Origin: Gammaproteobacteria bacterium
GTDB lineage: Bacteria > Pseudomonadota > Gammaproteobacteria > Ga0077536
DNA: 64,000 nucleotides
Direction of reading: 5' to 3'
Assembly: GCA_009692265.1 (NCBI GenBank)
Contig: SHZM01000009.1
Span: 1 to 64,000 of the forward strand
This document shows positions 853-35,017 of the stretch, in pieces; positions within the stretch are counted from its first letter, which is position 1; each line of letters starts with the position of its first letter. The translations under genes were made by a program, and so were the position numbers. Under the pieces are notes generated by a model. That model worked only from the letters and a program-made list of their open reading frames with translations. It made no database searches and had not been told where the DNA came from.

Positions 853-1157
853 CTTCCAAAATCTAAAAAATACCCCCCCGGGCTAGACGTTTTGAAAAGG
901 CATGGGGGCCTTTGCCAAATTCAGGATTTGACCGAGTGGATTGGTATGCAGGTGGAGTGCGGGACTCCTAAATGGAATTTGGGGGGAGGGGGTGTTGCGG
1001 AGACGCGATGCCGACTGCGTTGTGCGGGGAGAGTTGTGTGGGGTGATTGTCGAGTCGAAGCCAAGTTACTAGGGGGCGTCCAGTGATTTTAAGATGGTAA
1101 GTGGGTTGGTATGTGAAAACCATAAATCATACTAAGTCATTGTATTTATTTAATGTG

Positions 1158-1254
1158 TGGCGGAAGAGGTAGGAGTCGAACCCACCGAACCTGCAATTAG
1201 CAGGATCCACCGGATTTGAAGTCCGGGCACCCCACCGGGAGATGTCGCTCTTCC
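1158..1254 (-). tRNA. selC: tRNA-Sec (selenocysteine tRNA), anticodon UCA, 97 nt
   Basis: Reverse complement reads GGAAGAGCG...GGACTTCAAATCCGG...GGTTCGACTCCTACCTCTTCCGCCA with a long variable arm and the ACTTCAAAT anticodon loop. It is near-identical in blocks to E. coli tRNA-Sec and lies 36 bp downstream of selB on the same strand. Confidence 0.93.
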
Positions 1255-1289
1255 GGGGCGAATCGTAACCGATTAGCTGGCCAGGGGGA

Positions 1290-3272
1290 TCACGTCGATG
1301 CCCCGAAGATATCGGCGACCTTGCGCCTGAGCTTGCGGACTTGGCCTTGACGCATCGTGAGTCCGATTCGGTCGAAATACTCCAGTACTTCGATTGTCAC
1401 GTTTCGCCCGACTTTACTGCGCTCGCGAAACGCGGCGACGGTGAATGAGTCGCCTTGTTCCGCGCCGACTTGTTCGGCCACGGTCGCGAGGCGATAGAGG
1501 GCCGACGGTAAGTAGAAGCGGTACTTGCTGACCTTGATCAGAACGCCGTTATGCGCGGCACGCTCCAGGAACGGCAACAGAATTTGAATCGTAATCTTGA
1601 GCGGCTCGAGCATGTCATGCGCGGCTGGCGCTTGCAGTCCGTGGTGTTCGAGCAGGCTGCGGACGCGCGGTAGCAGGGCGGCGTCCATCGGTGACAATTG
1701 GCCGCTGTGGCCGGCGAGATGCAGTAAGCCGGCGGTCCGGCGTAAAGTGCCTTGCTGTATCAAGTGGACGATTGCCACGCGCATCAGCGACGCGCTCAAG
1801 GTGAGGCGTTGCCGCAGCGCCGCGTCGTTTAGCCCTGCCTGCGCCGGAAATTCCTGGTGATGACTTGTCACCGCAGTGAGAGTCCCGTCAATGATTTCGG
1901 TCCAGCGCGCCGGGGTGAGCGCCAACACGGCACCATTCGCCAGAGCGATTCGTTCGATCGGAATTGCGCGGGTTAAAGCTTCGATTTCATCCGTAGTGAG
2001 ATCCCACACGCGACAAAACCACCGAAAGTCGACACCGTCCGGTTGTTGTGCCAACAACGACGCCAAAGCGGTAGTGGTTTGCGTGGTCGTCAACGCCGCT
2101 AAGGATTGGGCGCGTTTGCTCCGCGAGGTGCTGCGGATTGCGGGACAGGGGTCGAGAATCGTACCGCCGCCCAAGGTGCGGGTTGCGGCTTGATCACGCA
2201 GCACGAAACGATCGCCATGAACCGCGCAGGCGGGTGCTTCGAGTACGAGCATCGCATACCCCTGTGCACCGGGCGCGAGGCCGCGATCACCCAGCAAGCT
2301 CACCCGACCAGGCAAATCGGCGGCCCCAAGATGCACATGCACTGGAGTGCGATCCTGGAGCGCCTTCGCTTCGCTCGCGAGCAAGTGGAGTTGAACACCC
2401 AGGCGGTTCGCACCGCCGCTGAGTGCGGGATCGATTAACCAATCGCCGCGATGGATTTCGACGCGGCGGAGATCGTTGCTGGCAATGTTAATCCCGCAGC
2501 GTTCGCCGGCGCCTGCGCGGGTGACCGCTTGGTTTTGCGCGTGGATCGAACGCACCCGTACTTCGATCCCCGAAGTGGCGAGGAGCAAGCGGTCATCGAC
2601 TGCCACCATGCCCGAATACGCGGTACCGGTTACCACGCGGCCGGCGCCACCGAGGATGAAACTGCGATCGATCGCAAGGCGAAAGTGTCCGCGTTCGGAG
2701 CGCGCCCGCAATTTTCGGGCCGCACTGATTAGCAAGCCGCGGAGTTCCGCCACACCAACACCCGCCGGGGTCGCAAGCGGTACCACGTTCGCCGCAGCCA
2801 ACGAGGTAGTCGCGAGCAAGGCATGGATTTCTTCTCGCACGTTAGTGAGGCGCTCAGGCGAGACGCGATCAATCTTCGTCAAGGCAACCGCGCCCTGCGT
2901 AATCCCGAGCAGTTCGAGAATCGCGAGATGCTCGCGAGTTTGTGGCATCGGACCGTCGTCGGCGGCGATCACGAGTAACGCGAAATCGATACCGGCGACT
3001 CCGGCGAGCATGTTACGCACGAAGCGCTCATGGCCGGGGACATCGATAAAGCCGATGACGTATTCTGCGTCGGCATCATTAATAGTGTGATACGCGAAGC
3101 CAAGATCAATCGTCATCCCGCGGGCTTGTTCTTCGGGCAGGCGATCGGTATCCACGCCCGTTAGCGCTTTAACCAGTAATGTCTTGCCGTGATCGACGTG
3201 TCCGGCGGTGGCAATTATCACGGCGGCAACACGCCGAGCTGGGCGATGAACTCGCGGGGATCTTCGAGGCAA
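1290..3272 (-). CDS. selB: selenocysteine-specific translation elongation factor SelB
   Basis: 660 aa with the GTPase G1 motif AGHVDHGKT near the N-terminus and a long C-terminal winged-helix extension. It sits between selA and tRNA-Sec. The true start is probably downstream of the ORF-track start, which overlaps selA by 55 nt. Confidence 0.88.
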
Positions 3273-4702
3273 CGCAGATCAAACACCAAGGCACCCTGGT
3301 GAATGCGCCCGATCACCGGCATCGGCAACCCGCGAAAGCGAGCCGCCAGTGTTTCGACCGCGCGACTTGAAACGCGCGCGGTGAGGGGGCGCAGGCGTAC
3401 GCCACAGCTCGGCAGTTGCTCCACTGGCAATGCACCGCTTCCAATTTGACTCTTACACGCGACGAGGTCGATCTCCACATTGCTGCGGAGCGCGGTTTGG
3501 AGCGGCGCGAGCACCTCGCGAGCGGTCGCTTCGATCTCGGCTATCGGTCGCGTGAGTAGGCGCAAGGCCGGGATTACTTTTACCGCGCGTGCGGGATCCG
3601 CATACAGTGGTAATACCGCCCCAAGCGACGCCAAGGTGAGTTTATCCACGCGCAAGGCACGGGTCATCGGATTTTTTTTGAGCTTTTTGATCAGATCAGC
3701 GCGGCCCGCGATGATTCCGGCCTGTGGCCCACCCAGCAATTTATCGCCACTGAACATGACGAGATCCGCGCCGTCGCGGATCGCCTCCTGCACCGTCGGT
3801 TCGCGCGGTAACCCAAAGCGTTCGAAATCAAGCAACGTACCGCTGCCGAGATCGACGACAAAGGGGATCTGCGATTTTCGCGCAAGCGCGGCAAGTTCGG
3901 ATTCCGCGACCGCCGCCGTGAACCCTTCGATACGATAATTGCTGGTGTGGATTTTCATGATGAGGCCGGTGCGAGCATCGATTGCGCCTTCGTAATCACG
4001 CAAGTGCACTCGGTTAGTGGTACCGACTTCGCGCATCAGCGAACCGGCGGCGGCCATGACATCCGGGATCCGAAACGAACCGCCGATCTCAACTAATTCC
4101 CCGCGCGAGACGATCACGCCACGCCTTCGTGCCAAGGTATTGAGCACCAGCATAACCGCGGCGGCATTGTTGTTCACGACCGTCGCGGCTTCGGCGCCGG
4201 TTAGTCGCTGCAGCCAGCTTGCCACGTGGTCATCCCGGTCGCCGCGTTTGCCGGCTTCTAGCGAGTATTCAAGATTCGTAGCCTGGGTCGCCACTGCGGC
4301 GATTGCCTTCAGCGCGGCTTCAGGCAATGGTGCACGACCAAGGTTGGTGTGGAGCACTGTCCCCGTGAGATTGAACACCGGGATCAAGCTCGGTTTAGTG
4401 AGCGATCGCAAGTGCTTGGCAGCGGCCACGGTGAGAGACTCCGAGACTGCTTCCACCGAGGATGCCGCGAGGCCGGCTAATGCCTCGCTGCGATAGCGGG
4501 CGGTCGCCGCGCGTAAGGCGGCAACTACCGGCTCGCGTCCATGCCGATGGATTAGAGCCAGCGTGTCAGCGCGCTGCAGTAACCGATCAATCGAGGGGAT
4601 CTGAAATTTAGGCTCGGTCATCGGGGCTCTGCGCACGGCAACGAAGGAACATGGTGGCGCGCCTTGTGTGGAGTTAGGCCGCATTATATTCTCCAGGCTC
4701 AA
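3218..4702 (-). CDS. selA: L-seryl-tRNA(Sec) selenium transferase SelA (start probably at about 4621)
   Basis: Translation contains FSGDKLLGGPQAGIIAG, the PLP-lysine region of selenocysteine synthase, and is about 465-494 aa long. It sits immediately upstream of selB. The MTEPKFQIPSIDRLL start at about 4621 is more plausible than the ORF-track start. Confidence 0.88.
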   Translation of the reverse strand: MSLENIMRPNSTQGAPPCSFVAVRRAPMTEPKFQIPSIDRLLQRADTLALIHRHGREPVVAALRAATARYRSEALAGLAASSVEAVSESLTVAAAKHLRSLTKPSLIPVFNLTGTVLHTNLGRAPLPEAALKAIAAVATQATNLEYSLEAGKRGDRDDHVASWLQRLTGAEAATVVNNNAAAVMLVLNTLARRRGVIVSRGELVEIGGSFRIPDVMAAAGSLMREVGTTNRVHLRDYEGAIDARTGLIMKIHTSNYRIEGFTAAVAESELAALARKSQIPFVVDLGSGTLLDFERFGLPREPTVQEAIRDGADLVMFSGDKLLGGPQAGIIAGRADLIKKLKKNPMTRALRVDKLTLASLGAVLPLYADPARAVKVIPALRLLTRPIAEIEATAREVLAPLQTALRSNVEIDLVACKSQIGSGALPVEQLPSCGVRLRPLTARVSSRAVETLAARFRGLPMPVIGRIHQGALVFDLRCLEDPREFIAQLGVLPP

Positions 4703-4721
4703 TCATTAAACGAGTACGGAG

Positions 4722-5306
4722 GTGGCAGTGTCGCGGATCCCCTTAGTCGAGCCCGATGGCGCATCGCCCGAGGTCAAGGCAGCTTACAAACAATTCGAAG
4801 AAATCGGTTTTCCGATCATGAACGTCATGAAGATGTTCGCGAACAATGGCAAGGTGCTGCAGGGCTTTGTGCAGATCGCGCAGGCGCTTTACGTTGCGCC
4901 GCGGATCTCACCACGATATCGCGAGCTAGCGTATCTGCGAGCCTCGCAGGTCAATTCCTGTCATTACTGAATTCCCACCCATGTGATGCTCGGTCTGAGT
5001 GTCGGCTTGACGAAGGCAGAAATGTCGATGATGGGCGATGCGGAGCATTGCGAGACCTTTGATGCCAAGGACCGTCTCGTTCTGCGGTATTCAGAAACGG
5101 TCACGCGCGAGAATCGTGTCGACGACGCGTTGTATGCCGAACTGGCAGTAAATTTCACGCAAGAAGAATTGGTCGATCTCGCGTTGACCGCCGCGTTCTC
5201 ATCGTTCGTGAATCGAATCCATGCGACCTTTCGCACGGATCTGGATGAATCCACGATCGCGCAAGTCGGAGACGCAGTCACCTGCGCGCTACCCCCGCGA
5301 CGTTAA
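4722..5306 (+). CDS. AhpD-core / carboxymuconolactone decarboxylase-family selenoprotein (peroxidase-related), in-frame UGA (Sec) at 4968-4970
   Basis: ORFs 4722..4970 and 4983..5306 are in the same frame and separated only by TGA. The read-through translation is ...RELAYLRASQVNSCHY-U-IPTHVMLG..., matching the AhpD core motif E-X11-C-X-(H/Y)-C-X3-H with the second Cys replaced by Sec. It is divergent from the selA-selB-selC cluster. The start is GTG at 4722 or 4728. Confidence 0.8.
4985..5003 (+). promoter_or_regulatory. candidate bacterial SECIS hairpin (stem GAUGCUC / GAGUGUC, loop GGUCU)
   Basis: A 7-bp stem with two G-U pairs starts 15 nt after the UGA. The apical loop GGUCU puts G-U at +26/+27 from the UGA, resembling the E. 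coli fdhF SECIS loop AGGUCU. Confidence 0.5.
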
Positions 5307-5409
5307 ACGTCCGCGCCTGTCGAGCCGAATAATTGCTTCGGATCGACGGCAGCTCCGCGCGCGGCCGGTCGTGTAGACTGGTGACCTTCCCAACGCCTAG
5401 GAGAAAGCG

Positions 5410-7110
5410 ATGTTTTGGTTGATCCTCACCCTTCTCGGCGTCCTCATGGCGGCACTTCCACAGGTGTTTCCGCCGCGAATCCCACCTGCCGTAACCCGCA
5501 TCGCGGGCATTGCACTCGCGGTGTTAGCCTTCAGCGCGACGTCTTTTATCGTCATTGATTCAAACTCCGTCGGCCATCTAAAGCGGGTGTATTTCGGCAA
5601 CGCAATGCCGCCGGGGCGTGTAATCGCGATGCGCGGCGAGAACGGCCCGCAAGCCGAAGTATTGCCACCAGGCATGAACCTGCGGCCCTTTCTGAATGTG
5701 TTCTACGATATCGATGAATTCCCGGTTACGGATATTCCGTCCGGCAGCTATGGCTTGTTGACGGCGCGCGATGGACGCCCACTCAGCGACGGCGAATTCC
5801 TGGCCAAGGGGTGGCGTGAGGAAGACTTCGAAAAGATGCTCGATGCGGAATATTTTCTTAAGCATAACGGTTCGCGCGGACCGCAGCTCAGTGTTCTTAA
5901 GCCAGGGAAGTACCGCATCAACTCGTATCTATTCGATGTGAAGATTCTGCCTTCGATTGAAGTTCATGCCGGTGAAGTCGCGGTGATCAAATCCAATGTG
6001 CGTGAAAGCGATGATTGTCCGTTGCCGCAGCTGCACGGAGATAGCGGCAGCGAGGGCGGGTTGGTCGTGCCAATCGTCAAGAAAGGCTGCATTGGTGTGT
6101 GGGCCGAAGCGCTGCTGCCGAATCGGTATTATCTCAATGCGCTGGCCTATTCGGCGACGATTATTCCGACTCGCGTCCAGACGTGGACCTATAAAGGCGG
6201 CTACACCCGGCGGCAAATCGATTTAGTCGTCGGTCAGGACGGTAAAATCGAACAGCGCGAAGCACAAGCCACCGAGGTACCAGTGCCGGAAGACGCGGCC
6301 GATTCGGCGGTGGGGCTTACCGTGGAAGGTTGGCGCGTGCCATTGGAATTGCGCGCGTTGGTCCAAGTGGAACCGGAAGATGCGCCACGAGTTGTCGCGT
6401 CGGTCGGCACGTTAGCCGATGTCGAAGATAAAATTATCACCCCCGCAATCCGCAGCGTGATCCGCAATGAAACTGGACGCCCCCCTGATCCCGAGCATGG
6501 TATCGAGGGGACTCGGGTGCTGGATCTCATTACAAAACGTGCCGAGCTGGAGCGCACGATCGAGCGCGCGATCATCCCCGAAGGCCGTAAGGCCGGGGTG
6601 ACAATCAAGGAAGTCCGGTTTTCCGATCCGGTAATTCCGCCCGAGTTGTTACTCGCGGGACAACGTAAGCAACTCGCCGAGCAATTGCGCAATACCTACA
6701 TCGAGGAGAAAAAGGCGCAAGAGGAGCGCATCGACACCGAAAAAGCGCGGGCCACCGCAGATCAGCAAGGAGAGCTTGTACGCGCCGAAATCGCGGTACA
6801 GGTGGCCAACCAAACGAAGGCCAAGTTGCAGCTGGAAGGCGAGGGCGAAAAGCTACGCTTGACCGAAATCGCGTTGGGGCAAAAAGCGCAGACCGAGGTA
6901 TTGGGTCAGGAACGGGTCTTGCAGCTTGCGATGTTAAAAGAAATCTTAGCCGCCGCGTCCATCAATCCAGACCTGGTCAAAGTACCCACCGTGCTCGTGC
7001 AAGGCAGTGACGCGAATAATTTGACCGGCGCGGCGGCGGTGTTGGGATCCAGCAATATTGTGCAGTTGCTGCAACAGGCGCGATCCAGTGAGGCCGCTGG
7101 TAAGCAGTAA
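5410..7110 (+). CDS. SPFH/band-7 (flotillin-like) membrane protein with C-terminal coiled coil
   Basis: N-terminal transmembrane helices, a central beta-rich domain, and a long Glu/Lys/Ala/Gln-rich coiled-coil segment (EEKKAQEERIDTEKARATADQQGEL...). AGGAGAAAG ribosome-binding site precedes the ATG. Confidence 0.4.
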   Translation: MFWLILTLLGVLMAALPQVFPPRIPPAVTRIAGIALAVLAFSATSFIVIDSNSVGHLKRVYFGNAMPPGRVIAMRGENGPQAEVLPPGMNLRPFLNVFYDIDEFPVTDIPSGSYGLLTARDGRPLSDGEFLAKGWREEDFEKMLDAEYFLKHNGSRGPQLSVLKPGKYRINSYLFDVKILPSIEVHAGEVAVIKSNVRESDDCPLPQLHGDSGSEGGLVVPIVKKGCIGVWAEALLPNRYYLNALAYSATIIPTRVQTWTYKGGYTRRQIDLVVGQDGKIEQREAQATEVPVPEDAADSAVGLTVEGWRVPLELRALVQVEPEDAPRVVASVGTLADVEDKIITPAIRSVIRNETGRPPDPEHGIEGTRVLDLITKRAELERTIERAIIPEGRKAGVTIKEVRFSDPVIPPELLLAGQRKQLAEQLRNTYIEEKKAQEERIDTEKARATADQQGELVRAEIAVQVANQTKAKLQLEGEGEKLRLTEIALGQKAQTEVLGQERVLQLAMLKEILAAASINPDLVKVPTVLVQGSDANNLTGAAAVLGSSNIVQLLQQARSSEAAGKQ

Positions 7111-11333: not shown

Positions 11334-14300
11334 TTACACACGTCGAAGTTTCTTTCGTTGCAATAAAAAAAACGCAGCTGGGATTACAAATAAGGACAGC
11401 AGCGGTGCCGTCACCATACCGCCAACCATCGGTGCGGCGATACGGCGCATGATTTCAGAGCCCGTTCCAGTCCCGAGCAGGATCGGCAGGAGACCGGCCA
11501 GGATCACCGCCGCCGTCATTGCCTTCGGACGCACGCGGCTGACGGCACCTTCGCGGATCGCCGCTTTCAACTGTTCGATGTCGATGGTGATTCCGCTCGC
11601 CACCTGTCGTTCTAGTGCCTGTCGCAAGTACCACAGCATTACGATTCCAAACTCGGCGGCGACCCCGGTCAACGCGATAAACCCAACTCCCGTTGCCACT
11701 GACCTCTGATAGTCGAGGCTATATAACAACCACAGTCCACCCACCGACGCGCACGGAATCGTCAGCATGATTACCAACGCTTCGGAGACCCGCGCGAAAA
11801 CCACCAACAGCAACACAAAGATGATCGCGATCACGGCGGGTGCGACCCATTGCAGTCGCGCGGTGGCGCGCGCCAGGTATTCATATTGGCCCGAATAAGT
11901 CACTGTCACTCCGACCGGCAGCGGAACTTGCGCCGCGATCCCGGTCCGAAGATCGCGCACGACCCGTCCGAGATCTGAACTATTCACGTCGACATACACC
12001 CATCCCGAGAGTCGCGCGTTCTCGCTTCTGATCTGCGGTGGCCCGTCGTTGATTTTCACCGTTGCCACCGCGCCCAAAGTCAGGAGCTGCCCGTTGGAGG
12101 CGACAAACGGCAATTCGCGCAATCGCGTGAGCGAGTCTCGCAATTCGCGTGGGTAGCGTACGTTGATCGGAAATCGCGCGAGGCCTTCAACGGTCTGGTC
12201 GATGTTCTCACCGCCGACCGCCGCCGCGATAATGGTCTGGATCTCCGCGACAGTCAGACCGTACTGCGCGATCTGCTGGCGATCGATTTCAATATCGAGA
12301 TAGCGCCCGCCGGTGAGTCGTTCGGCCAATGCCGAACTCACCCCGGGCGTGACCTTTGCGATCTTTTCGATCGCACGCGCGGTGCGTTCGATGGTGACGG
12401 GATCAGGTCCGGATATTTTCACCCCAATCGGGCTTTTGATCCCGGTGGCGAGCATGTCGATCCGATTACGGATAGGCGGCACCCATAAGTTCGACAGACC
12501 CGGCACCTGCACGCGGCGATCCAACTCCGCGATGAGCGCGTCAAGGGTCAAGCCCGGGCGCCAGGCCTCGCGCGGTTTCAGTTTGATCGTCGTTTCGAAC
12601 ATTTCGAGTGGCGCGGGATCGGTCGCGGTCTCGGCGCGTCCGGCTTTGCCAAACACATGTTCCACTTCGGGCATTGCTTTGATCATTCGATCGGTGCGTT
12701 GCAACAACTCGCTTGCCTTGGCGGCCGAAAGACCCGGTAGCGCGGTCGGCATGTACAGAAGATCGCCCTCATCGAGCGCCGGCATGAATTCAGATCCCAG
12801 GTGACGCCAGGGATAGATCGCCGATAGCAACGCGAGCCCCGCCAGCAGCAAAGTGGTTCGCGGCCACCGCAGAACTGCATTCAGCAATGGCAGGTACAGG
12901 GCTACCAGCAATACGCTCAGCGGATTGTCTGCTTCGCGCGGAATGCGGCCACGGATCACATAGCCCATGAGCACCGGCGCAAGGGTGACCGACAAGCACG
13001 CGGCTGCCGCCATCGCATACGTTTTGGTATACGCCAGAGGTCCAAACAAGCGACCTTCCTGCGCCACGAGCGCGAATATCGGAGTAAACGAGATGGTAAT
13101 CAACAGCAGGCTAATAAATATTGCCGGCCCCACCTCGCTCGCCGCGTCGCCGATCACCCGCCAGCGGGTAGCGCTATCTAAGGTGTTCGCGGGATGCGCG
13201 TGCTGCCAGTGCTCTAAATGCTTGTGGGCGTTCTCGAGCATGACAATCACCGCGTCGACCATCGCGCCCACCGCGATCGCGATGCCACCCAGCGACATGA
13301 TATTCGCGGTGATCCCCTGATACTTCATCACGATGAAGGCCGCGAGCACGCTAAGCGGCAGGAGGATGATCGCAACCAACGCCGAGCGCAGATGAAACAG
13401 AAAAATCACGGTCACCGCCATCACAACTGCGAACTCCTCGATGAGCTTATTGGTTAGGTTCGCGACCGCGCGGTCGATCAACTCCGAGCGATCATAGACC
13501 GGCACGATCTCCACGCCTTCCGGTAGACCTGACGTGAGTTCCGCTAGTTTCTTGCGTACAGCTGCGATCGTGGCGCGCGCGTTACCCCCGGCGCGCAGCA
13601 ACACCACCGCGCCGACCGTTTCACCTTCGCCGTCGAGCTCCGCGATCCCTCGGCGCATTTCCGGCCCGCGTTGAATGATCGCGACATCGGCCAGGACAAT
13701 CGGGATCCCATTGCTGGCGGTGCCCAGGGGCACCGCGCGGAGATCAGCGATGCCGCGCAGATAAGTGCTCGCGCGAACCATGTATTCCGCTTCGGCGATT
13801 TCGATCACGCCGCCGCCAGTTTCGCGATTAGCCGCCTGAATCGCCGCAATCACGCGCGCAATCGGCATTCCATAGGACGCGAGCTTCATGGGATCGAGCA
13901 GCACCTGATACTGCTGCACCATGCCGCCGATCGTCGCGACTTCGGCGACCTCGGGCAGCCCCGACAATTCGAATTTTAAAAACCAGTCTTGCAGCGCGCG
14001 TAGCTGTCCAAGATCATGACGACCCGAGCGATCGACCAGCGCATATTGATAAATCCAGCCAACACCCGTCGCGTCCGGTCCCAGGTTCGATTTCGCCGTA
14101 GGCGGCAGTCGTGACTGGACTTGATTCAAGTACTCCAGCACGCGCGAGCGTGCCCAGTACAAGTCCGTCCCGTCTTCGAACAGCACATAGACAAACGAAT
14201 CGCCGTAGAACGAATACCCACGGACCGACTTCGCGCCAGGCACTGACAACATCGTGGTGGTCAGCGGGTAGGTCACCTGATTTTCGACAATTTGGGGCGC

Positions 14301-14468
14301 CTGTCCCGGCAAGCTCGTGCGAATGATTACCTGCACATCGGAGAGATCCGGCAGCGCGTCGATCGGCGTTGAGCGAACGGCCCAGATCCCCCAGGCCGCG
14401 AGGAAAAGGCTCAACGTGAGCACGATCGCTCGTTGCTCAATCGATGCTCGAATAAGGCGCGCGATCAT
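11334..14468 (-). CDS. cusA: Cu(I)/Ag(I) efflux RND permease CusA (HME-RND)
   Basis: 1044 aa. Long stretches are near-identical to E. coli CusA, for example [27 protein letters not shown] and [20 protein letters not shown]...[28 protein letters not shown]. Confidence 0.85.
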
Positions 14469-15703
14469 GGTGGGGTCTCCACATCAACCTGGCCGCGTAA
14501 ACTCGCTTCGGAATCGAACAGAAACTGACCGGACGCGACGATCCGATCACCGGCCTGTAGACCGGTACTCACTTCGATCTCGCTAGCGCCCTCATGACCG
14601 AGTTGAATCGAGACCGCGCGAAAGTGTCCGGCACTTTCTTCGCGCATGACCAAGGTGCGGGTGCCGGTACGAATAACCGCCTCGCTCGGCACCAGCACGG
14701 CGGGCTCAGAGTTGGTCGACGCAATCATCACGCGCGCTGACATGCCTGCCTTGAGCCGTCGCTCGCGGTTGGGCAGTTCGATCCGCACCCGCAAAGTGCG
14801 GGTAGCAGGATCGGTACTCGCAAGGATCGCCGCAATCGTGCCGTTGAGGGGTGTCGCCGGAAACGCCGCCAGTTCGGCGCGAACCACTTGTCCGACCTCC
14901 ACGGCTTCGGCGGCCGTTTCGGGCACTGCTATCTCCAGCCACATCGGATCAAGCCCAGTGATCGTGGCGAGGGTCACCCCAGCGCCCAGGCTCATGCCCG
15001 CGCGCACCTCCAGCGTGGTCAGTACCCCCGTGAGGGGTGCGCCAATAGTAAGAACAGGTTGTGTTTTCCCCGTGGCGACGACCGTGTCGATCAGTGCAGA
15101 CGGCATGCCGAGTCGCTGCAAACGACTACGCGCCGCGGCACTTAAACTTGAATCACCGAGGGCATACAGCGCGAGTAATTCTTGTTGAGCCGCCAGCCAT
15201 TCCGGCACCAGCAGATCGGCCAGTGGGGCGCCTTCGGCGATCTCATCACCCGGTGCGCGCGCGTATACCCTCTCGACGTAACCGGCAGTGCGAGTTTGCA
15301 CGATCGCCACGTCGCGGGCGTTGAACGCCAGCTGACCGGAGGCGATGATTTCGCGCGACAAGTTTCCCGTACGTACGGTCACCACGCGCACCCCAAGATT
15401 TTGCGCCACGACGGGGTCGATCCGAAGATTTCCCTTCTCGGCGCTATCCTGCTCGTCGTCTGCGTACTTCGGCACCAGCGCCATGTCCATGAACGGCGAT
15501 TTTCCTGGGCGATCAAAACGCTGGGTGGGCACCATTGGGTCGTACCAGTACAGCACTGTACGCGCGTTGTGCGGGGTCGGTGTCGCCTCGAATAATTTCG
15601 CACTCGAGTGCCACGCGCTCCAGTACCCGATACCGATCCCAAGGATGAGCGCTACGCCGATCGCAACACCAAGCCAGGAGTTACTCGTGCGCATCGTGTT
15701 CAC
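14465..15703 (-). CDS. cusB: efflux RND periplasmic adaptor (CusB/CzcB family)
   Basis: 412 aa with an N-terminal membrane anchor and a membrane-fusion-protein beta-barrel/lipoyl fold. It is translationally coupled to cusA by a 4-nt overlap. Confidence 0.75.
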
Positions 15704-16964
15704 CTCCCTCGTAGGTGTAATACAAGTCAGCGGCTGAAAGAGTCACCGCAGCGGTTGCGTCGAGCAGCTCTAAACGGGTTTCGATCAAGGTGCCGCGGGT
15801 GTCCAGTAGGGTCTCGAGATCAATACTTCCGGCAGCATAGGCGGCAGCGGCCAGTGTCGCGCGGCGCTTTGCCAACGGCAGCCGTTGGGTTTGATAACGC
15901 ACCAAGCGCTGCCGATCGCGCGCATGCCGCACCAAGCCACGTTCAAGCGCGGCCGCGTGGTCGCGCAACATTTGGGCGCGCTCGGCTTCGAGTGCGGCTA
16001 AGTCCTGGAGACGGGCAGCAATGAGCGGATCCTGGCGGTGCTCCGCAAACAATGGCAGGTCGATCGAGACTTCGGCCGAGATCATGTCCCCATACTCGGG
16101 GCCCCGATGCGCGTAGGCGACTTCGAAATCCCAATCGGGGCGCTTATCCGCCGCGGCCGCGGTCATCGCAGCTCGCGCTTCGTCGAGGCGGCTTGCGAAT
16201 TCCAGCAGCTCAGGATGCTGCTGCACATGCGCGCGCAGGTGCGCAGGCTCCACTTCGATGTGCGGCGGCGAGACGCTCAACGGGAGTTCCGCCGCGGCGC
16301 CGATCAGGCGTGCGAGTTCAACGCGCGCTTGGTCGCGTTCGGCCGCCAAGGCTTCATGCCGATCGGCTAGTTCCAAGGTGTCGATTTCTGGCGCGAGGGC
16401 AGCCACTGGATCAAGCGCTCCGGCCGCCACCTGACCCGGCACGGTATGCGAGGCCCGCGTATTCTCCTCGCTCAAGTCGCGCAACGCCGCGAGCTTGCGC
16501 TCGGCGTAGTACACCTCTAACCAGGCCAGTGCCGCATCGCGCCGCAACTTCAGCCGTGTAGTCAACGCCGTCGCGTTCGCGGTGCCGATTTTCGCTTCGG
16601 CGCCGTGTCGCCGTGCCTCCCGTTTCGCACGATTAGTCCACGCCTGCTGAATACCGACCTTCTGCATGGTCATGAAGTCGCGACTCAACGAGAAACTATC
16701 GCGACCGGTAATCGGGAGATTGTCGAGGCCAACGACGAGTTTCGGATCCGGCAGCGCGTCGGCCGGGATCGCCTGCGCGCGTAGCGCCGCGATCCGCGCG
16801 GTGTCGGCCTGTACCGCCGGGGTGTCATGCGTCGCGAGCGAAAGCGCTTGTTCAAACGATAATTGTGCATCTGCCCACGTCGGGGCGAGGGCCAGAAGGC
16901 CCGTGAAGATCCATGCCAACATGGCTGAACTCCCATTGTTCAGCGTGCGCAGCGCGCACCTCAC
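15681..16964 (-). CDS. cusC: outer-membrane efflux protein (CusC/TolC family)
   Basis: 427 aa with a signal peptide and two TolC-type repeat halves rich in coiled coil (Ala/Arg/Leu/Glu). It lies directly upstream of cusB. Confidence 0.7.
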   Translation of the reverse strand: MRCALRTLNNGSSAMLAWIFTGLLALAPTWADAQLSFEQALSLATHDTPAVQADTARIAALRAQAIPADALPDPKLVVGLDNLPITGRDSFSLSRDFMTMQKVGIQQAWTNRAKREARRHGAEAKIGTANATALTTRLKLRRDAALAWLEVYYAERKLAALRDLSEENTRASHTVPGQVAAGALDPVAALAPEIDTLELADRHEALAAERDQARVELARLIGAAAELPLSVSPPHIEVEPAHLRAHVQQHPELLEFASRLDEARAAMTAAAADKRPDWDFEVAYAHRGPEYGDMISAEVSIDLPLFAEHRQDPLIAARLQDLAALEAERAQMLRDHAAALERGLVRHARDRQRLVRYQTQRLPLAKRRATLAAAAYAAGSIDLETLLDTRGTLIETRLELLDATAAVTLSAADLYYTYEGGEHDAHE

Positions 16965-17428: not shown

Positions 17429-19366
17429 CTATTTCGAATTATGTCGCTTCTTCCGCGGCTTCAGAGAACCTCTGCGCTGTTGCGCGCTTTCCGCGCTGAG
17501 TTCAGCCAGCCCTTTAATCTGCGGTTCGGTTAGCAAGGCCAGGTTAAAGCGATGCTTGCCTAAACGGACCTTCTTCAGATGCTGCAGGACTTCGCGCGGC
17601 ATGCCGTCCGGCAAATCAACGGTGCTGAAGTCGTCGAAAATTTCAATACGACCGATGTAGCGGCTGTCGATGCCGGCTTCGTTTGCGATTGCGCCCACGA
17701 TATGTTTAGGCGTCGCGCCCTGTTGCACACCAATATCAATACGGTAGCGCACGAGTTCGACATCGTTGGCAATAACTGGGGGTGGCGGTCGAGAGTCGGC
17801 CAGGGGCGCGGGACGGGCACCCAGCGGCGGCCGAGTCGTGCGAGCTTTCTGAGACTCATAGCCTTCTTGCCGAGGTTCGTGATGGTCACGACGGGGTTCG
17901 TACTGTGTCGGCGGTGCGGCTGGACGTTCTCGACGCGGTGGCTCACTGCGGGTGCCGCGCGGCGCGCGCTCTTCGCGGAACGGTGGGGGCGGGGCTTCGC
18001 GCTGTTTGGCCTCAAGCCGCAGCGGTCGATCGCGCTGGACCATAAAACTCAGCGCGGCCGCGATTTCTCGGGGTTCGACCCCCTGTTCGTGCGCCATTTG
18101 ATCGACAAGGCCGCCGAAAAATTCCAGATTCTCATTCGCGACTGTATCGATCACCGCTTGCTTGAATTGCACTACGCGGCGTTCAACGATCGCATCCAGG
18201 CTGGGAGTGCGCATCGCTTCGATCGGTTGCTTGGTCGCGTGCTCGATCGCACGCAACATCCGCATCTCGCGCGGTGCGACGAACAGGATCGCGACCCCAG
18301 TGCGCCCGGCGCGAGCGGTGCGACCAATCCGATGCACATAGCCTTCGATGTCGTGTGGAATGTCGTAATTGATTACATGACTGATCCGCGGCACATCAAG
18401 GCCGCGTGCCGCGACATCGGTCGCGATCACGATGTCGATATGATTATTTTTGAGCTGATCGATCGTCTTCTCGCGTTGCGCCTGATTCAGATCTCCGTTC
18501 AGCGCCGCGCACGGATAACCGCGCGCTTCGAGTTTTTCCGCGAGTTCCACGGTTGCGGTCTTGGTACGCACAAACACCAGCGCGGCATCGATCTCTTCAA
18601 TTTCGAGAATCCGGGTCAACGCATCGAGCTTATGCAGCCCGGCGACCTGCCAATACCGCTGGTGTACGGCTTCGACCGTGCTGGTCTTGCTCTTAATCTT
18701 GATCTCTTGAGGTTCGCGCAAATGGTTGCGGGCCACCACGCGGATCGGCTCAGGCATGGTGGCCGAGAACAGCCCGGTCTGGCGGGTCGGCGGGGTGTGT
18801 TCGAGGATCCAGGTGACTTCTTCCAGAAACCCCATGCGCAGCATTTCATCGGCTTCATCAAGGATGAGCGCGCGCAGCTTGCCGAGCTTGAGGCTTTCGC
18901 GCCGTAAGTGATCCATTACCCGACCCGGCGTGCCGACGATCACATGCACCGGGCGCTGGAGTGCGCGTAATTGCACGACCATGCTCTGTCCACCGTAGAT
19001 CGGCACCACGTGGAAACCAGGCAGGTGTCGCGCGTAACTCTGAAACGCCTCGGCGACTTGAATGGCGAGTTCGCGGGTCGGCGTTAGTACCAGTACCTGC
19101 GGTTCGCGCTGTTGCATGTCGAGGCGCGCGAGTAACGGCAACGCGAAGGCGGCGGTCTTGCCGGTCCCGGTCTGCGCCTGACCGATAAGGTCCTGGCCTT
19201 GCATCAATACCGGAATGGCGGCGGCCTGGATCGGACTCGGCGTCTCGTAGCCGACCGCTTCAAGCGCGGTCATCAGAAAGGGGGGCAGGCCAAAGGCGGC
19301 AAAATTTTCGGAAGTTTCGGACATCAAGGAACCTGACAAACGGAGGGGCGCGCAGTGTAATCCCAC
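17429..19366 (-). CDS. deaD: DEAD-box ATP-dependent RNA helicase (DeaD/CsdA type) with C-terminal DbpA-like RNA-binding domain
   Basis: Q-motif, AQTGTGKT, DEAD, SAT and HRIGRTGR motifs, plus an Arg/Pro/Glu-rich linker and a C-terminal DbpA-type domain. The start is probably MSETSENF at about 19324. Confidence 0.85.
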   Translation of the reverse strand: MGLHCAPLRLSGSLMSETSENFAAFGLPPFLMTALEAVGYETPSPIQAAAIPVLMQGQDLIGQAQTGTGKTAAFALPLLARLDMQQREPQVLVLTPTRELAIQVAEAFQSYARHLPGFHVVPIYGGQSMVVQLRALQRPVHVIVGTPGRVMDHLRRESLKLGKLRALILDEADEMLRMGFLEEVTWILEHTPPTRQTGLFSATMPEPIRVVARNHLREPQEIKIKSKTSTVEAVHQRYWQVAGLHKLDALTRILEIEEIDAALVFVRTKTATVELAEKLEARGYPCAALNGDLNQAQREKTIDQLKNNHIDIVIATDVAARGLDVPRISHVINYDIPHDIEGYVHRIGRTARAGRTGVAILFVAPREMRMLRAIEHATKQPIEAMRTPSLDAIVERRVVQFKQAVIDTVANENLEFFGGLVDQMAHEQGVEPREIAAALSFMVQRDRPLRLEAKQREAPPPPFREERAPRGTRSEPPRRERPAAPPTQYEPRRDHHEPRQEGYESQKARTTRPPLGARPAPLADSRPPPPVIANDVELVRYRIDIGVQQGATPKHIVGAIANEAGIDSRYIGRIEIFDDFSTVDLPDGMPREVLQHLKKVRLGKHRFNLALLTEPQIKGLAELSAESAQQRRGSLKPRKKRHNSK

Positions 19367-19522: not shown

Positions 19523-20560
19523 TTAGCAACAGGCCCCACCCGTAGTCACCGCGTCTTGTGCGAACGGGATGCTGCTCCCGCACCCTTCGAATAGACCGTA
19601 ATGCCGTTCAAAATTGCCGATGAATTCGAAATGCGGTTTGAAGCGCGTGTCATGCAACATCTTCCAGGTATTCCCGCAGACCGGAAATACGCGGCCGGTT
19701 TCGATGTCGTGGTGCCCATCTAACACGAAGCGATGCGGGTGCGCGGCGATGGTGCCGCGGTAGATCACGGCCTGGCCGTAATCTTCACAGGCGGTTTCGA
19801 GTCCCACCAGCTTGAATAAACGGTAGGTCGCCGAATAAAACCGCACCGTGCCAGCGCGTGCTGCGAGCTCAGGATCGGTGATCGTAAGCGGCCGATTGGC
19901 GACCAGGCGCGGATCGGCAAAGCCGTGACGGTGGGCCAAGCGCAGAAAATCATTCCAATACAGCGCGCCCCCCATGCATTCGTTATAGAGCAACGCGTCG
20001 TCGCGCACCTTTGCGGGCACTCGCCGATCGGCATACACATCCGAAAAATAGAATTCTCCACCGGGCTTGAGCAGGTTAAACACTTCGCGCAGCACCGCAT
20101 CTTTGTCCGGCGAGAGATTCACAACGCAGTTCGAGACGATGACATCGATGCTGCCGGCCGGAATGCCGAGCTCGTCCAGGCGTTCGATGAAGCCCTGCTT
20201 GAATTCAACATTGTCGAAACCGAACTGCTCACGGTGATAACTGCGATAGCGCTCGGCGAGGGCCAGTTGTTCGGTGGTCATGTCGACCCCGATGACATGC
20301 CCCCCCGCACCGACTAGTTGGGCTAACACATAGACGTCGCGCCCGGCGCCACAACCGAGGTCGAGTACGCGCATCCCTTCGAGCAGGGATGGGCAGACCA
20401 ACCCGCAGCCGTAGTAGCGGGCGAGCACTTCGGGGTGCACGCGTTTAAGCAGGGTTTTGAACCAACCTGGAACCTCCTCGGGATCGCAGCACGCGGAGGT
20501 TTTTAGATCGACCGAGCTTTGCAGGGTTTGACCGTAGTATTCTTGAATCGATTCGTGCAT
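19523..20560 (-). CDS. arsM: arsenite S-adenosylmethionine methyltransferase (ArsM-like)
   Basis: SAM-binding VLDLGCGAGRD plus the conserved ArsM cysteines: ACC and YYGCG near the N-terminus, SNCVVNL and ECMGGALYW, and a C-terminal CC. Confidence 0.7.
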   Translation of the reverse strand: MHESIQEYYGQTLQSSVDLKTSACCDPEEVPGWFKTLLKRVHPEVLARYYGCGLVCPSLLEGMRVLDLGCGAGRDVYVLAQLVGAGGHVIGVDMTTEQLALAERYRSYHREQFGFDNVEFKQGFIERLDELGIPAGSIDVIVSNCVVNLSPDKDAVLREVFNLLKPGGEFYFSDVYADRRVPAKVRDDALLYNECMGGALYWNDFLRLAHRHGFADPRLVANRPLTITDPELAARAGTVRFYSATYRLFKLVGLETACEDYGQAVIYRGTIAAHPHRFVLDGHHDIETGRVFPVCGNTWKMLHDTRFKPHFEFIGNFERHYGLFEGCGSSIPFAQDAVTTGGACC

Positions 20561-33500: not shown

Positions 33501-33634
33501 AAAGTGAAAGGCGGATCCTCGGACTGGCCGAGGTGAAAATAGGCCCACACGCCACTCAAGCCCAACAGCAACATGAAATAGCTTACAAGCGCCCGATTAG
33601 CGAGCGCCCAAGCACTCAGGTTGAAGCGTGACAT
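30563..33634 (-). CDS. multidrug efflux RND permease (AcrB/HAE1 family)
   Basis: 1023 aa with 12 predicted transmembrane segments and two large periplasmic loops; the N-terminus is AcrB-like. Confidence 0.85.
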   Translation of the reverse strand: MSRFNLSAWALANRALVSYFMLLLGLSGVWAYFHLGQSEDPPFTFRIMVVRTLWPGATADEVDRLVTEKIEEKLQELNALDYLRSYSRPGESQIFIIFREDGPAAAMPENYYQARKKVSDIRHTLPAGVIGPSFNDEFADTFGNIYALQGADFSYAELKEYAERVRDRLLRIADVAKVNFIGLQEERIFVDIANTRRAELGIPAQVLMDVLAEQNGIVTAGSFDTSTDKIYARVSGSFTTVEDVENLPIEYAGRTFRLGDIATVYRGYQDPPAPRLRFNGQPAIGIAVSMEKGGDIIQLGQRLDLEFERLNQDVPLGMSLARLADQPLAVRDSVTEFVMALAAAVVIVLLVCFLSLGVRTGLVVALSIPLVLAMTFAAMHYLHIGLHKTSLGALVIALGLLVDDAIIAVEMMAVKLEEGFDRFQAASFAYTSTAFPMLSGTLITAAGFLPIVIAKSMVGEYTVAIFQVTVIALLLSWVAAVVFVPLLGYALLPEKGLSSDGVAHDEHAVYHTSFYNRFRALVQFCVRYRWLTIVTTAAVFAASLVLFSKVPQQFFPDSVRLELLVDLKLPEGASIAQTDLAAARLEEILAKLEGVDSYAAYIGSGAPRFILPLDQQLPAQSFAQFVINTRDFVAREQVRAHLIALFPTTFPDLRWRVNRIENGPPVGYVLQYRVSGPDRDGIRLEAEKVAAALRDNPHAAGIHLDTAEQSKVLRIVLDQDRARSLGVSSQMVAMAVAAATNGVMPTTFREDNELIDIVLRGPPHERQRIELLGSLAIPTASGTNITLAQVAKLEYRFEDGILWRRNHVPTITVRADIYSGMQPPEVVAMLAPALARIEAALPRGYRIELGGTVADSGKAQASVMAGMPFLILVVLTVLMVQLKSFSQTAMVFLTAPLGIIGVAVFLLLFRQPFGFIAMLGTIALFGMIMRNSVILIDQIRQDLAQGRAPFDAVVEATVRRFRPIVLTSLAAVLAMIPLSGSVFFGPMAVAIMGGLIAATVLTLLFLPALYAAWFRVPRAAAEQ

Positions 33635-33645
33635 CGCACCAAGGT

Positions 33646-34915: not shown

Positions 34916-35017
34916 GATGCCGATAGGGCATGGCCTTCTTCAATCCGAATAGGAACGGTATGGTAATGGAATTCGGCGACGAATAGCCAAACCCGACCGC
35001 GCGCCGAGATACGTGTT

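What the first reader, a model, noticed from the sequence alone, without database searches (positions are those of the whole stretch)
4722..5306. AhpD-core selenoprotein gene with in-frame UGA, mis-split by the ORF caller
ORFs 4722..4970 and 4983..5306 share a frame and are separated by one TGA. Read through, the protein is ...RYRELAYLRASQVNSCHY-U-IPTHVMLG..., which matches the AhpD/carboxymuconolactone-decarboxylase core motif E-X11-C-X-(H/Y)-C-X3-H with Sec replacing the second Cys. The gene is divergently transcribed from selA-selB-tRNA-Sec about 100 bp away. It is the only Sec-containing gene in the window. Standard pipelines would annotate two short hypothetical ORFs.
Basis: partly seen in the sequence, partly recalled or inferred. 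Interest (0 to 1): 0.8.

Follow-up and report, generated by a model that had tools for sequence, protein, structure and literature searches.

The report
Selenocysteine AhpD-like redox enzyme gene
The two short "hypothetical" reading frames are one gene for a small antioxidant-type enzyme whose active-site cysteine is replaced by selenocysteine, encoded by an in-frame UGA; this type of selenoprotein has been known since 2005, so the call is correct but ordinary.

Summary
Window 4728..5306 (+) is one 192-codon gene with a single in-frame TGA at 4968-4970.

- **Family.** Read through, it matches the CMD/AhpD family across the TGA. It carries the AhpD proton-relay motif E66-X11-C78-H-Y-U81-X3-H85.
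- **Conservation of the TGA.** 68 of 69 related loci from genomes and metagenomes have TGA at this codon, never TAA or TAG. The protein sequence is conserved on both sides.
- **Cys homologues.** More distant full-length homologues (25-34% identity) have Cys at that position.
- **SECIS.** An 8-bp hairpin with a GGUCN loop starts 13 nt after the UGA. It pairs in 99.4% of cells. Its codons are frozen at synonymous sites, while the codons around it vary freely.
- **Machinery.** selA, selB and tRNA-Sec lie divergently 43-106 bp upstream. This linkage is kept throughout one clade of the protein tree.
- **Annotation.** Every public gene call splits the gene into an 80-aa and a 106-aa hypothetical protein.

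CxxU AhpD-like selenoproteins were described in 2005 and are abundant in metagenomes. This clade is an uncurated, apparently Sec-only subfamily: it falls below the cut-offs of TIGR01926 and NF053654. It has an extra conserved C-terminal Cys, and it sits next to selABC where fdhA usually sits. Verdict: new member of a known kind, modest interest. The biochemical function is inferred, not shown.

The parts
4728..5306 (+). AhpD/YciW-like selenoprotein gene: 192 codons including U81, stop TAA at 5304-5306. The motif is E66-X11-C78-H79-Y80-U81-X3-H85. Two further cysteines are conserved, C108 and C186.
   Evidence: The start is set by the RBS and by the N-termini of orthologues.
4968..4970 (+). In-frame UGA, read as selenocysteine (U81).
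   Evidence: TGA is present in 68 of 69 related loci and is never TAA or TAG. It aligns with Cys in 9 of 20 distant full-length homologues.
4984..5004 (+). Bacterial SECIS-type hairpin. The stem pairs 4984-4991 with 4997-5004 (8 bp) and the loop GGUCU is at 4992-4996. The stem starts 13 nt after the UGA.
   Evidence: RNAalifold predicts this helix independently. 99.4% of 464 cells are paired, against 25-44% for slid controls; there is one G-C to A-U double change and G-U/G-C alternation. The codons for V86, L88, G89, L90 and V92 are frozen, at 0-0.37 bit against a mean of 1.33 bit elsewhere. Stability is -8 kcal/mol, z = -2.1 for the 27-nt segment.
4718..4722 (+). Shine-Dalgarno GGAGG, 5 nt before the GTG start.
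   Evidence: Read directly from the sequence. AGGAG/GGAG is also present in the orthologous loci.
4664..4692 (+). Conserved promoter-like element of the selenoprotein gene: TTGTGT-N17-TATTCT. In the other loci it reads CTTGTG...CATTATAGGCT.
   Evidence: It is conserved at -46 to -59 from the start codon in 17 further loci. L007 and L008, where selA is not divergent, keep it as TTGTCA-N17-TAGCCT. The consensus scan did not flag it. Its role as a promoter is inferred.
3218..4621 (-). selA, selenocysteine synthase. The public gene call uses an alternative start at 4684.
   Evidence: Pfam PF12390 and PF03841 on the identical public gene call. It is adjacent to the AhpD-like gene in 18 loci including the window.
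1290..3221 (-). selB, the Sec-specific elongation factor. Its GTG start overlaps the selA stop (GTGA).
   Evidence: Pfam GTP_EFTU, Beta-barrel_SelB, WHD_2nd_SelB and WHD_3rd_SelB. The overlap was read.
1158..1254 (-). tRNA-Sec (selC), anticodon UCA, 35 nt downstream of selB.
   Evidence: ARAGORN; Rfam RF01852 at 64.2 bits, E 6.5e-12; sequence read.

Best explanation
Window 4728..5306 encodes one 192-residue AhpD/YciW-like (CMD-fold) oxidoreductase. UGA 4968-4970 is decoded as selenocysteine.

Decoding (inferred from the anatomy and from the established bacterial Sec pathway): the hairpin at 4984-5004, with its GGU-containing apical loop, acts as the bacterial SECIS. It binds SelB carrying GTP and Sec-tRNA(Sec), and that complex delivers Sec to the UGA 13-22 nt upstream. 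SelA, SelB and tRNA-Sec are supplied by the divergent operon next door.

The protein: it carries the five-residue AhpD proton relay (Glu66, Cys78, Tyr80, Sec81, His85), with Sec in place of the second Cys of CxxC. The most likely chemistry is a selenol/thiol redox cycle. Sec81 attacks a peroxide or an oxidised partner such as a peroxiredoxin. Cys78 then resolves the intermediate into a selenenylsulfide, and an external reductant re-reduces it. The clade-specific cysteines C108 and C186 may take part in a relay.

What is shown: the single gene, the conserved UGA, the RNA-level constraint on the hairpin, family membership at superfamily level, and the synteny with the sel genes.

What is inferred: actual Se insertion, the peroxidase or reductase activity, the substrate, and any role for C108 and C186.

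The confidence of 0.9 is for 'one Sec-decoded AhpD-like gene'. The specific peroxidase/reductase chemistry I would put at about 0.5.
For: **One gene.** The CMD match spans the UGA. TIGR01926 aligns aa 4-170 to model positions 1-171 of 178. PDB 3c1l aligns over aa 13-168, with NHCYYCLTAH opposite NSCHY(U)IPTH.

**Conserved UGA.** 68 of 69 loci have TGA. All 34 close database proteins are half-proteins.

**The stretch between the UGA and the next ATG is translated.** I82, P83, T84 and H85 are conserved as amino acids but use 2-4 synonymous codons each.

**Cys at the U position in homologues**.

**SECIS.** L88 is CTC in 58 of 58 sequences and G89 is GGT in 58 of 58, whereas other conserved Leu and Gly codons carry 1.2-1.9 bits. 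The four lowest-entropy degenerate codons of the whole gene all lie in the hairpin.

**Standard genetic code.** TGA ends 9 of 32 Pfam-supported genes in the window.

**Machinery.** tRNA-Sec, selA and selB are adjacent. The linkage is kept in 18 loci that form one clade plus a sister pair, L007/L008, with a different gene order. None of the 18 well-flanked loci outside that clade is linked.

**Active-site motif.** It is identical in form to that of PA0269 (Glu36, Cys48, Tyr50, Cys51, His55), a protein with measured cysteine-dependent H2O2-reducing activity, and to that of M. tuberculosis AhpD (Glu118, Cys130, His132, Cys133, His137) (PMC3141380). PA0269 structures 2o4d and 2ijc are direct sequence hits.
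Against: - There is no experimental evidence for Se insertion.
- The hairpin is only moderately stable. Longer folded segments are no more stable than shuffles: z = +0.55 for 73 nt and z = -0.08 for 45 nt.
- Direct covariation is thin because the helix hardly varies: one pair has a double change, seen in 2 sequences.
- No bulged U like the one in the E. coli fdhF SECIS (recalled from memory).
- selD was not found in the window.
- No ahpC or peroxiredoxin gene lies nearby, so the redox partner is unknown.
- The protein scores below the curated cut-offs of every NCBIfam full-length model.
Confidence: 0.9

Rival explanations
1. Two separate small proteins. Translation ends at UGA 4968, giving an 80-aa N-half, and restarts at the conserved AUG 4986, giving a 106-aa C-half. 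The halves assemble non-covalently, and the hairpin would serve translational coupling or restart.
For: Gene callers produce exactly these two products. ATG 4986 is invariant in 58 of 58 sequences.
Against: The five codons between the UGA and the ATG (I-P-T-H-V) would then be untranslated. Yet they are conserved as amino acids with free synonymous change, and they include the catalytic His85. There is no Shine-Dalgarno sequence before ATG 4986. The invariance of the ATG is explained by its position inside the hairpin stem. Homologues carry Cys at the UGA position within one continuous chain. The stop is always TGA and never TAA or TAG. The gene sits beside selABC.
Confidence: 0.04
2. A pseudogene, or a sequencing or assembly error: a nonsense mutation in a Cys codon (TGC/TGT to TGA) of an ordinary AhpD-like gene.
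For: TGA is one substitution away from the Cys codons. One related locus (L067, protein P0031) is clearly a decayed deletion variant.
Against: The same TGA appears in 64 of 65 independent contigs from many environments, with 52-87% protein identity and purifying selection on both sides. No close Cys orthologue exists among 5.8 billion proteins or among 1.84 billion cluster representatives.
Confidence: 0.01
3. The UGA is read through as a standard amino acid (Trp, Gly or Cys), by codon reassignment or near-cognate suppression rather than as Sec.
For: UGA reassignment exists in some bacterial lineages (general knowledge). Cys would be functional at this position.
Against: TGA ends 9 of 32 well-supported genes in the window. 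A dedicated tRNA-Sec, selA and selB are adjacent. An RNA hairpin under strong selection sits exactly where a bacterial SECIS is expected.
Confidence: 0.02

Closest known systems
AhpD-like selenoprotein family (COG2128/YciW, TIGR01926; CxxU), described from the Sargasso Sea and GOS metagenomes (PMC1088965, PMC2398784; listed in PMC9312934 and PMC13188914)
   Same: The same superfamily (CMD/AhpD core). Sec takes the place of the second Cys of CxxC, giving CxxU. A bacterial SECIS lies directly downstream, and Cys homologues are widespread. TIGR01926 aligns end to end.
   Different: It scores below the TIGR01926 cut-off, in the window (57.7 against 81.8) and in 10 orthologues (39-58). The published marine sequences AhpD-like 1 (NECEYUIRAH) and AhpD-like 2 (NECFYUTSAH) resemble it only around the active site (BLASTP 22.7 and 29.6 bits). 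This clade has CHYUIPTH, the extra conserved cysteines C108 and C186, and no close Cys orthologue.
NF053654 'GroundWater_YciW', YciW-related (seleno)protein (NCBIfam equivalog)
   Same: It is the best or second-best full-length NCBIfam match, colinear over about 155 residues. The model is itself named a '(seleno)protein' family.
   Different: It scores 48-64 bits against a cut-off of 310, so this is a different subfamily. PGAP would not rescue the gene with this model.
PA0269 of Pseudomonas aeruginosa (PDB 2o4d, 2ijc) and Mlr4105 (PDB 3c1l): CxxC AhpD-like proteins of known structure
   Same: Direct sequence hits (E 4.6e-9 to 1.8e-7). The relay has the same form, E-X11-C-X-Y-C-X3-H. PA0269 has measured weak, Cys-dependent H2O2 reduction (PMC3141380).
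   Different: Those proteins use Cys, not Sec, and identity is only about 25-30%. Their partners and physiological substrates are also unknown.
Mycobacterium tuberculosis AhpD (the AhpC-reducing adaptor; Glu118, Cys130, His132, Cys133, His137)
   Same: The same two-helix active-site motif and spacing (PMC3141380).
   Different: No ahpC gene is adjacent and there is no hit to the AhpD equivalog model. The chain topology differs: the motif lies near the middle of the chain here, and is C-terminal in the M. tuberculosis protein. This is not a member of the AhpD proper family.
The selA-selB-selC cluster with a neighbouring fdhA in Alpha-, Beta- and Gammaproteobacteria (PMC1794560)
   Same: A compact selA-selB-tRNA-Sec operon with a selenoprotein gene immediately beside it, inherited together within a clade.
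   Different: The companion selenoprotein here is the AhpD-like gene, not fdhA. No fdhA is present in the 64-kb window.

Membership tests
Bacterial selenoprotein gene (Sec-UGA plus SECIS) | An in-frame UGA conserved among orthologues, with protein conservation on both sides | tested here: met
   68 of 69 loci have TGA, and the flanks C-H-Y-*-I-P-T-H are nearly invariant. Synonymous variation in the flanking codons is normal.
Bacterial selenoprotein gene (Sec-UGA plus SECIS) | Cys-containing homologues with Cys aligned to the UGA | tested here: met
   9 of 20 full-length homologues have C at that column, for example P0052 with CHYCIPTH. PDB 3c1l shows C-Y-Y-C there.
Bacterial selenoprotein gene (Sec-UGA plus SECIS) | A stem-loop immediately downstream of the UGA, with a small apical loop containing G | tested here: met
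   An 8-bp stem and a GGUCN loop, with the loop starting 22 nt after the UGA. RNA-level constraint is shown by codon freezing. The criterion is as worded in PMC1088965.
Bacterial selenoprotein gene (Sec-UGA plus SECIS) | Sec-decoding machinery in the same genome (selA, selB, selC, selD) | tested here: inconclusive
   selA, selB and tRNA-Sec are adjacent. selD was not found in the 64-kb window, and the rest of the genome could not be searched.
Bacterial selenoprotein gene (Sec-UGA plus SECIS) | Selenium actually incorporated at the UGA | not testable with these tools
   This needs 75Se labelling or mass spectrometry.
CMD / AhpD-core superfamily (PF02627, TIGR00778) | Scores above the curated cut-offs | tested here: met
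   PF02627 scores 49.8 against 23. TIGR00778 scores 33.1 against 27.8, and 31.8-42.1 in 10 orthologues.
CMD / AhpD-core superfamily (PF02627, TIGR00778) | Proton-relay motif E-X11-C-X-(H/Y)-C-X3-H | tested here: met
   E66, C78, Y80, U81 and H85. H85 is invariant and E66 nearly invariant across 21 homologues. The motif definition is from PMC3141380. Sec replaces the second Cys.
CMD / AhpD-core superfamily (PF02627, TIGR00778) | All-helical AhpD-like fold | not tested
Only sequence alignment to solved structures is available.
TIGR01926 'peroxidase-related enzyme' (the model cited for the AhpD-like selenoprotein family) | A whole-protein score of at least 81.8 bits | tested here: not met
   57.7 bits for the window protein and 38.9-57.8 for 10 orthologues. 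The alignment is nevertheless end to end.
NF053654 YciW-related (seleno)protein | A whole-protein score of at least 310 bits | tested here: not met
   50 bits; 47.9-63.6 in the orthologues.
Published marine AhpD-like 1 and 2 selenoproteins (GOS) | Full-length sequence similarity to the published members | tested here: not met
   BLASTP similarity is limited to about 33-39 residues around the active site. The clade's motif strings are absent from the stored supplements, although some of those files were cut when stored.
AhpD proper (the AhpC partner, M. tuberculosis type) | Genetic linkage to ahpC and a match to an AhpD equivalog model | tested here: not met
   The neighbours are selA, a Band-7/SPFH protein and an ABC-2 transporter. 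No AhpD equivalog appears among the NCBIfam hits.

The most novel reading that the evidence does not exclude
In this clade of environmental Gammaproteobacteria, the AhpD-like protein may be the anchor selenoprotein, possibly the only one. On this reading it keeps the Sec-decoding trait alive, and selC-selB-selA plus this gene form a self-contained module in the role that fdhA plays in other Proteobacteria. The enzyme would also use a three-point relay specific to the Sec forms: Cys78, Sec81 and the C-terminal Cys186 tail. That tail is present in the split (Sec-type) homologues and absent from all 13 full-length CxxC homologues examined.
Probability: 0.25. Interest if true: 0.45.

Novelty: new member of a known kind. 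Interest (0 to 1): 0.3.

Why it matters
**Annotation.** A whole clade of these genes is recorded in public databases as pairs of short hypothetical proteins. It comprises at least 64 independent contigs from lake, groundwater, soil and marine metagenomes. No NCBIfam model currently reaches it. A dedicated model that includes the very regular SECIS would correct those records and add a subfamily to selenoprotein catalogues.

**Biology.** The gene shows that a selABC cluster can travel with an antioxidant-type selenoprotein instead of formate dehydrogenase. That bears on why aerobic bacteria keep the costly Sec machinery.

None of this changes what is known about Sec decoding or about AhpD-like enzymes.

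Tried and rejected
- **Structure prediction and the exhaustive HMM search with the read-through protein.** I ran the exhaustive search with the alignment of C-terminal halves instead. No structure was obtained.
- **Thermodynamic support for the SECIS.** Folding 73 nt or 45 nt after the UGA gave no support (z = +0.55 and -0.08). Only the 27-nt hairpin segment stands out (z = -2.1). The case rests on conservation, not on stability.
- **Rfam.** It has no match for the hairpin. Only tRNA-Sec was found in 900..5500.
- **Consensus promoter and terminator scan of 4500..5500.** No promoter was found, and one terminator-like site that is no more than chance would give. The conserved promoter-like motif came from comparing loci.
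- **Conserved neighbours in loci without selA.** Clustering ORFs across loci mostly returned spurious high-GC alternate-frame ORFs. Only selA, selB, a HemF-like gene (9 loci) and a luciferase-like monooxygenase (6 loci) recur. The downstream Band-7 gene is not conserved.
- **A second selenoprotein gene in the window.** None was found.
- **A wrong-frame SelA query.** This was my error; the query started 1 nt off. It was redone correctly.
- **The second ARAGORN hit ('tRNA-???', 14497..14593).** I considered it as a possible second unusual tRNA and rejected it, because it lies inside a CusB-type coding region.
Full report
**1. The observation**

Window 4722..4970 and 4983..5306 are mechanical ORFs in one frame, separated by a single TGA at 4968-4970. 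The read-through translation is ...PRYRELAYLRASQVNSCHY*IPTHVMLGLSVGLTK....

The real start is most likely GTG 4728. It lies 5 nt after GGAGG (4718-4722), and the N-terminal fragments of orthologues begin M-S/A/P-R-I-P-L-V-E-P. A public gene call on an identical contig gives an 80-aa product from this position. The gene is therefore 4728..5306, 192 codons, with the TGA as codon 81.

- tRNA-Sec at 1158..1254 (-) (ARAGORN; Rfam RF01852 at 64.2 bits against a gathering score of 47).
- selB at 1290..3221 (-), with GTP_EFTU, Beta-barrel_SelB and the two SelB winged-helix domains.
- selA at 3218..4621 or 4684 (-), with Se-cys_synth_N and SelA domains.

The selA stop and the selB start overlap as GTGA. 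The divergent gap to the AhpD-like gene is 43-106 bp.

**2. One gene, not two**

With U replaced by C, the protein matches several models across the TGA:
- Pfam CMD (PF02627) at aa 45-102, 49.8 bits against a cut-off of 23.
- The AhpD core-domain model TIGR00778, 33.1 bits against 27.8.
- TIGR01926, aligned colinearly over aa 4-170 to model positions 1-171 of 178.

The downstream half alone still matches NF053654 (E 1.1e-5) and TIGR01926 (E 0.011). Against solved structures, the best match is 3c1l (Mlr4105, 'putative antioxidant defense protein'). It aligns over aa 13-168, with NHCYYCLTAH opposite NSCHY(U)IPTH. The PA0269 structures 2o4d and 2ijc are also hits.

**3. Comparative evidence for Sec**

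*Database proteins.* A search of 5.8 billion clustered proteins with the read-through sequence returned 34 hits, and every one is a half-protein. The C-halves are 106 aa and start MLGLSVG. The N-halves end ...NSC(H/R)Y. The exact 106-aa product of this window is deposited as 'hypothetical protein EXR86_03540 [Gammaproteobacteria bacterium]'.

*Related loci.* Scans of one-genome-per-species contigs and of JGI metagenomes, using peptide patterns from the C-half, returned 69 loci. Those patterns are blind to the codon at position 81. The results were:
- 68 of the 69 loci carry TGA at the homologous codon. This is 64 of 65 contigs after removing four duplicate records.
- None carries TAA or TAG, and none carries a sense codon.
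- The flanks C-H-Y-*-I/V-P-T-H-V-M-L-G are almost invariant.
- The exception, L067, is a deletion variant that has lost the whole core.

*Translation between the UGA and the next ATG.* These codons are conserved as amino acids but vary synonymously: I82 uses ATC/ATT/ATA, P83 four codons, T84 four codons and H85 two. That stretch is therefore translated in this frame. This excludes termination at the UGA followed by restart at ATG 4986.

*Genetic code.* TGA is an ordinary stop in the window, ending 9 of 32 Pfam-supported genes. A reassigned code is therefore excluded.

**4. Cys homologues**

An exhaustive profile search of 1.84 billion cluster representatives with the C-half alignment found 942 proteins at E <= 1e-3. 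The nearest relatives are again split halves.

The nearest full-length proteins are only 25-34% identical. Nine of the 20 I aligned have Cys exactly at the U column: P0052 (CHYCIPTH), P0131, P0081, P0056, P0063, P0075, P0065, P0128 and P0143. The others have lost the redox motif.

So Cys/Sec pairing holds at the family level. Within this clade no Cys form was found, and the clade appears to be Sec-only.

**5. The SECIS**

Thirteen nucleotides after the UGA lies an 8-bp hairpin. The stem pairs 4984-4991 (UGAUGCUC) with 4997-5004 (GAGUGUCG), and the loop is GGUCU (4992-4996). The evidence:
- RNAalifold predicts this helix on its own from 58 distinct sequences.
- 99.4% of 464 cells pair, against 25-44% when the 3' arm is slid by 1-3 columns.
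- Pair 18/36 shows G-C, G-U and a compensated A-U (in L062 and L063). Pair 21/33 alternates G-U with G-C. Pair 20/34 shows U-G and U-A.

The strongest signal is at synonymous sites:

| Codon | Usage |
|---|---|
| V86 | GTG 54 of 56 |
| L88 | CTC 58 of 58 |
| G89 | GGT 58 of 58 |
| L90 | CTG 35 of 35 |
| V92 | GTC 53 of 57 |

The 62 other conserved degenerate codons of the gene average 1.33 bits of codon entropy. The neighbouring G93 has 1.89 bits. The four lowest-entropy codons of the whole gene all lie in the hairpin.

The loop bases G, G and U are invariant. [quoted passage not shown]

Stability is moderate, at -8 kcal/mol with z = -2.1 for the 27-nt segment. Longer segments are no better than shuffles. 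The argument therefore rests on conservation.

**6. Linkage to the Sec machinery**

- selA lies next to the gene in 18 loci including the window, selB in 13, and tRNA-Sec was detected in 8.
- On a neighbour-joining tree of 58 full-length proteins, the linked loci form one clade.
- A sister pair, L007 and L008, has selA-selB-tRNA-Sec downstream on the same strand instead of divergent.
- Within that clade, every locus with enough flanking DNA is linked. Outside it, none of 18 well-flanked loci is.

A conserved promoter-like element, TTGTGT-N17-TAnnCT, lies 46-59 nt before the start codon in these loci. It stays with the AhpD-like gene in L007 and L008, so it belongs to that gene. In the window it is at 4664-4692. 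That it works as a promoter is inferred.

**7. How it most likely works**

*Decoding.* The standard bacterial route is inferred from the parts present. SelA makes Sec-tRNA(Sec). SelB binds that tRNA and the hairpin, and delivers Sec at the UGA.

*Chemistry.* The five residues Glu66, Cys78, Tyr80, Sec81 and His85 reproduce the AhpD proton relay. The relay is Glu118, Cys130, His132, Cys133, His137 in M. tuberculosis AhpD and Glu36, Cys48, Tyr50, Cys51, His55 in P. aeruginosa PA0269. PA0269 reduces H2O2 weakly in a Cys-dependent way (PMC3141380).

Sec replaces the second Cys of the motif. As I recall from Koshkin et al. 2003 (from memory, not checked here), that residue is the attacking nucleophile in M. 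tuberculosis AhpD. A selenolate there would speed the attack on a peroxide or on an oxidised partner, and Cys78 would resolve the intermediate.

No ahpC or peroxiredoxin gene is nearby. The neighbours are a Band-7/SPFH protein and an ABC-2 transporter, so the partner and substrate are unknown.

*Extra cysteines.* Two further cysteines are conserved in the clade: C108 in 55 of 58 sequences and C186 in 56 of 56. C186 sits in a C-terminal 'C-x-[LI]-P/G' tail. Among the best 150 representatives, a tail of this kind occurs in 25 of 90 short or split (Sec-type) hits and in 0 of 13 full-length CxxCxxxH homologues. A role as a relay or resolving Cys is a hypothesis only.

**8. Comparison with what is known**

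CxxU AhpD-like proteins were reported as new selenoproteins from the Sargasso Sea in 2005, with 27 sequences (PMC1088965). 'AhpD-like 1' (COG2128) was the fourth most abundant selenoprotein family in the GOS data, with 299 sequences (PMC2398784). Current reviews list 'AhpD-like protein, TIGR01926, CxxU' (PMC13188914; PMC9312934). The kind is therefore well known.

Membership at subfamily level fails, however:
- TIGR01926 scores 57.7 bits in the window and 39-58 in ten diverse orthologues, against a cut-off of 81.8.
- NF053654 'YciW-related (seleno)protein' scores 48-64 bits against a cut-off of 310.
- The published marine AhpD-like 1 and 2 sequences (NECEYUIRAH, NECFYUTSAH) resemble this protein only around the active site.

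The selABC-plus-neighbouring-selenoprotein arrangement is also known, but with fdhA as the companion (PMC1794560). Here the companion is the AhpD-like gene, and the window holds no fdhA.

**9. Verdict**

The gene is a new, uncurated, apparently Sec-only subfamily within a known selenoprotein family. It is mis-split in every public record I saw.

Novelty: new member of a known kind. Interest: 0.3. This is a clean annotation fix, plus a modest evolutionary point about which selenoprotein accompanies selABC. It is not a surprise to specialists.

The most novel reading still open is that this is the sole or anchor selenoprotein of the lineage, with a Sec-specific Cys186 relay. I give it a probability of about 0.25.

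Noticed in passing
window 14497..14593 (-): ARAGORN reports a 97-nt 'tRNA-???' with a two-base anticodon. It lies inside a CusB/HlyD-type membrane-fusion gene (14465..15703, HlyD_D23 at 205 bits), so it is most likely a false positive.
   Followed up: partly
window 4664..4692 (+); about -46 to -59 nt from the start codon in L001-L006, L013, L014, L018, L020, L023, L036, L037, L044, L048, L050 and L055; also L007 and L008: A conserved promoter-like element lies upstream of the selenoprotein gene (CTTGTG...CATTATAGGCT; TTGTGT-N17-TATTCT in the window). L007 and L008, where selA is not divergent, keep it as TTGTCA-N17-TAGCCT. On the selA strand the motif reads TATAAT in most loci, so it might serve both directions. 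The consensus scan missed it.
   Followed up: partly
protein residues C108 and C186 (window 5049..5051 and 5283..5285): Two extra cysteines are conserved in the Sec clade. The C-terminal Cys-Pro tail is found in split (Sec-type) homologues but in none of 13 full-length CxxCxxxH homologues. It could be a resolving or relay cysteine.
   Followed up: partly
L067 (Ga0207428_10037365), proteins P0031 and P0061: A deletion variant joins ...SRIPLVEP directly to ETCASFDDTDRLVL. It lacks residues ~10-105, including the CxxU core, and is presumably a decayed copy.
   Followed up: no
window 3218..3221 (-) and 1254..1290: The selA stop and the selB start overlap as GTGA, which suggests translational coupling. 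tRNA-Sec begins 35 nt after the selB stop and encodes its CCA end.
   Followed up: yes
L002, L004, L006, L016, L022, L029 (record titles): Several MAG records that carry this gene are titled 'Klebsiella pneumoniae', 'uncultured Klebsiella sp.' or 'Enterobacteriaceae'. Their nearest relatives in the protein tree come from records titled as unclassified Gammaproteobacteria, Pseudomonadota or Deltaproteobacteria MAGs. The organism names look wrong.
   Followed up: no
window 11334..16964 (-) and 30563..35058 (-): There are two RND efflux systems. One is Cus-like, with an outer-membrane factor, a CusB-type adaptor carrying a heavy-metal-binding domain, and an AcrB-family pump. An SAM methyltransferase (Methyltransf_31) at 19523..20560 lies about 2.6 kb beyond the Cus-like cluster, past a DEAD-box helicase gene (17429..19366). 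No link to the selenoprotein was examined.
   Followed up: no
L001-L005, L018, L020, L023, L055, about 2 kb downstream of the gene: An ORF whose sequence looks like aerobic coproporphyrinogen oxidase (HemF), judged by eye and not checked against any family library, recurs on the opposite strand in 9 of the selA-linked loci but not in the window.
   Followed up: no
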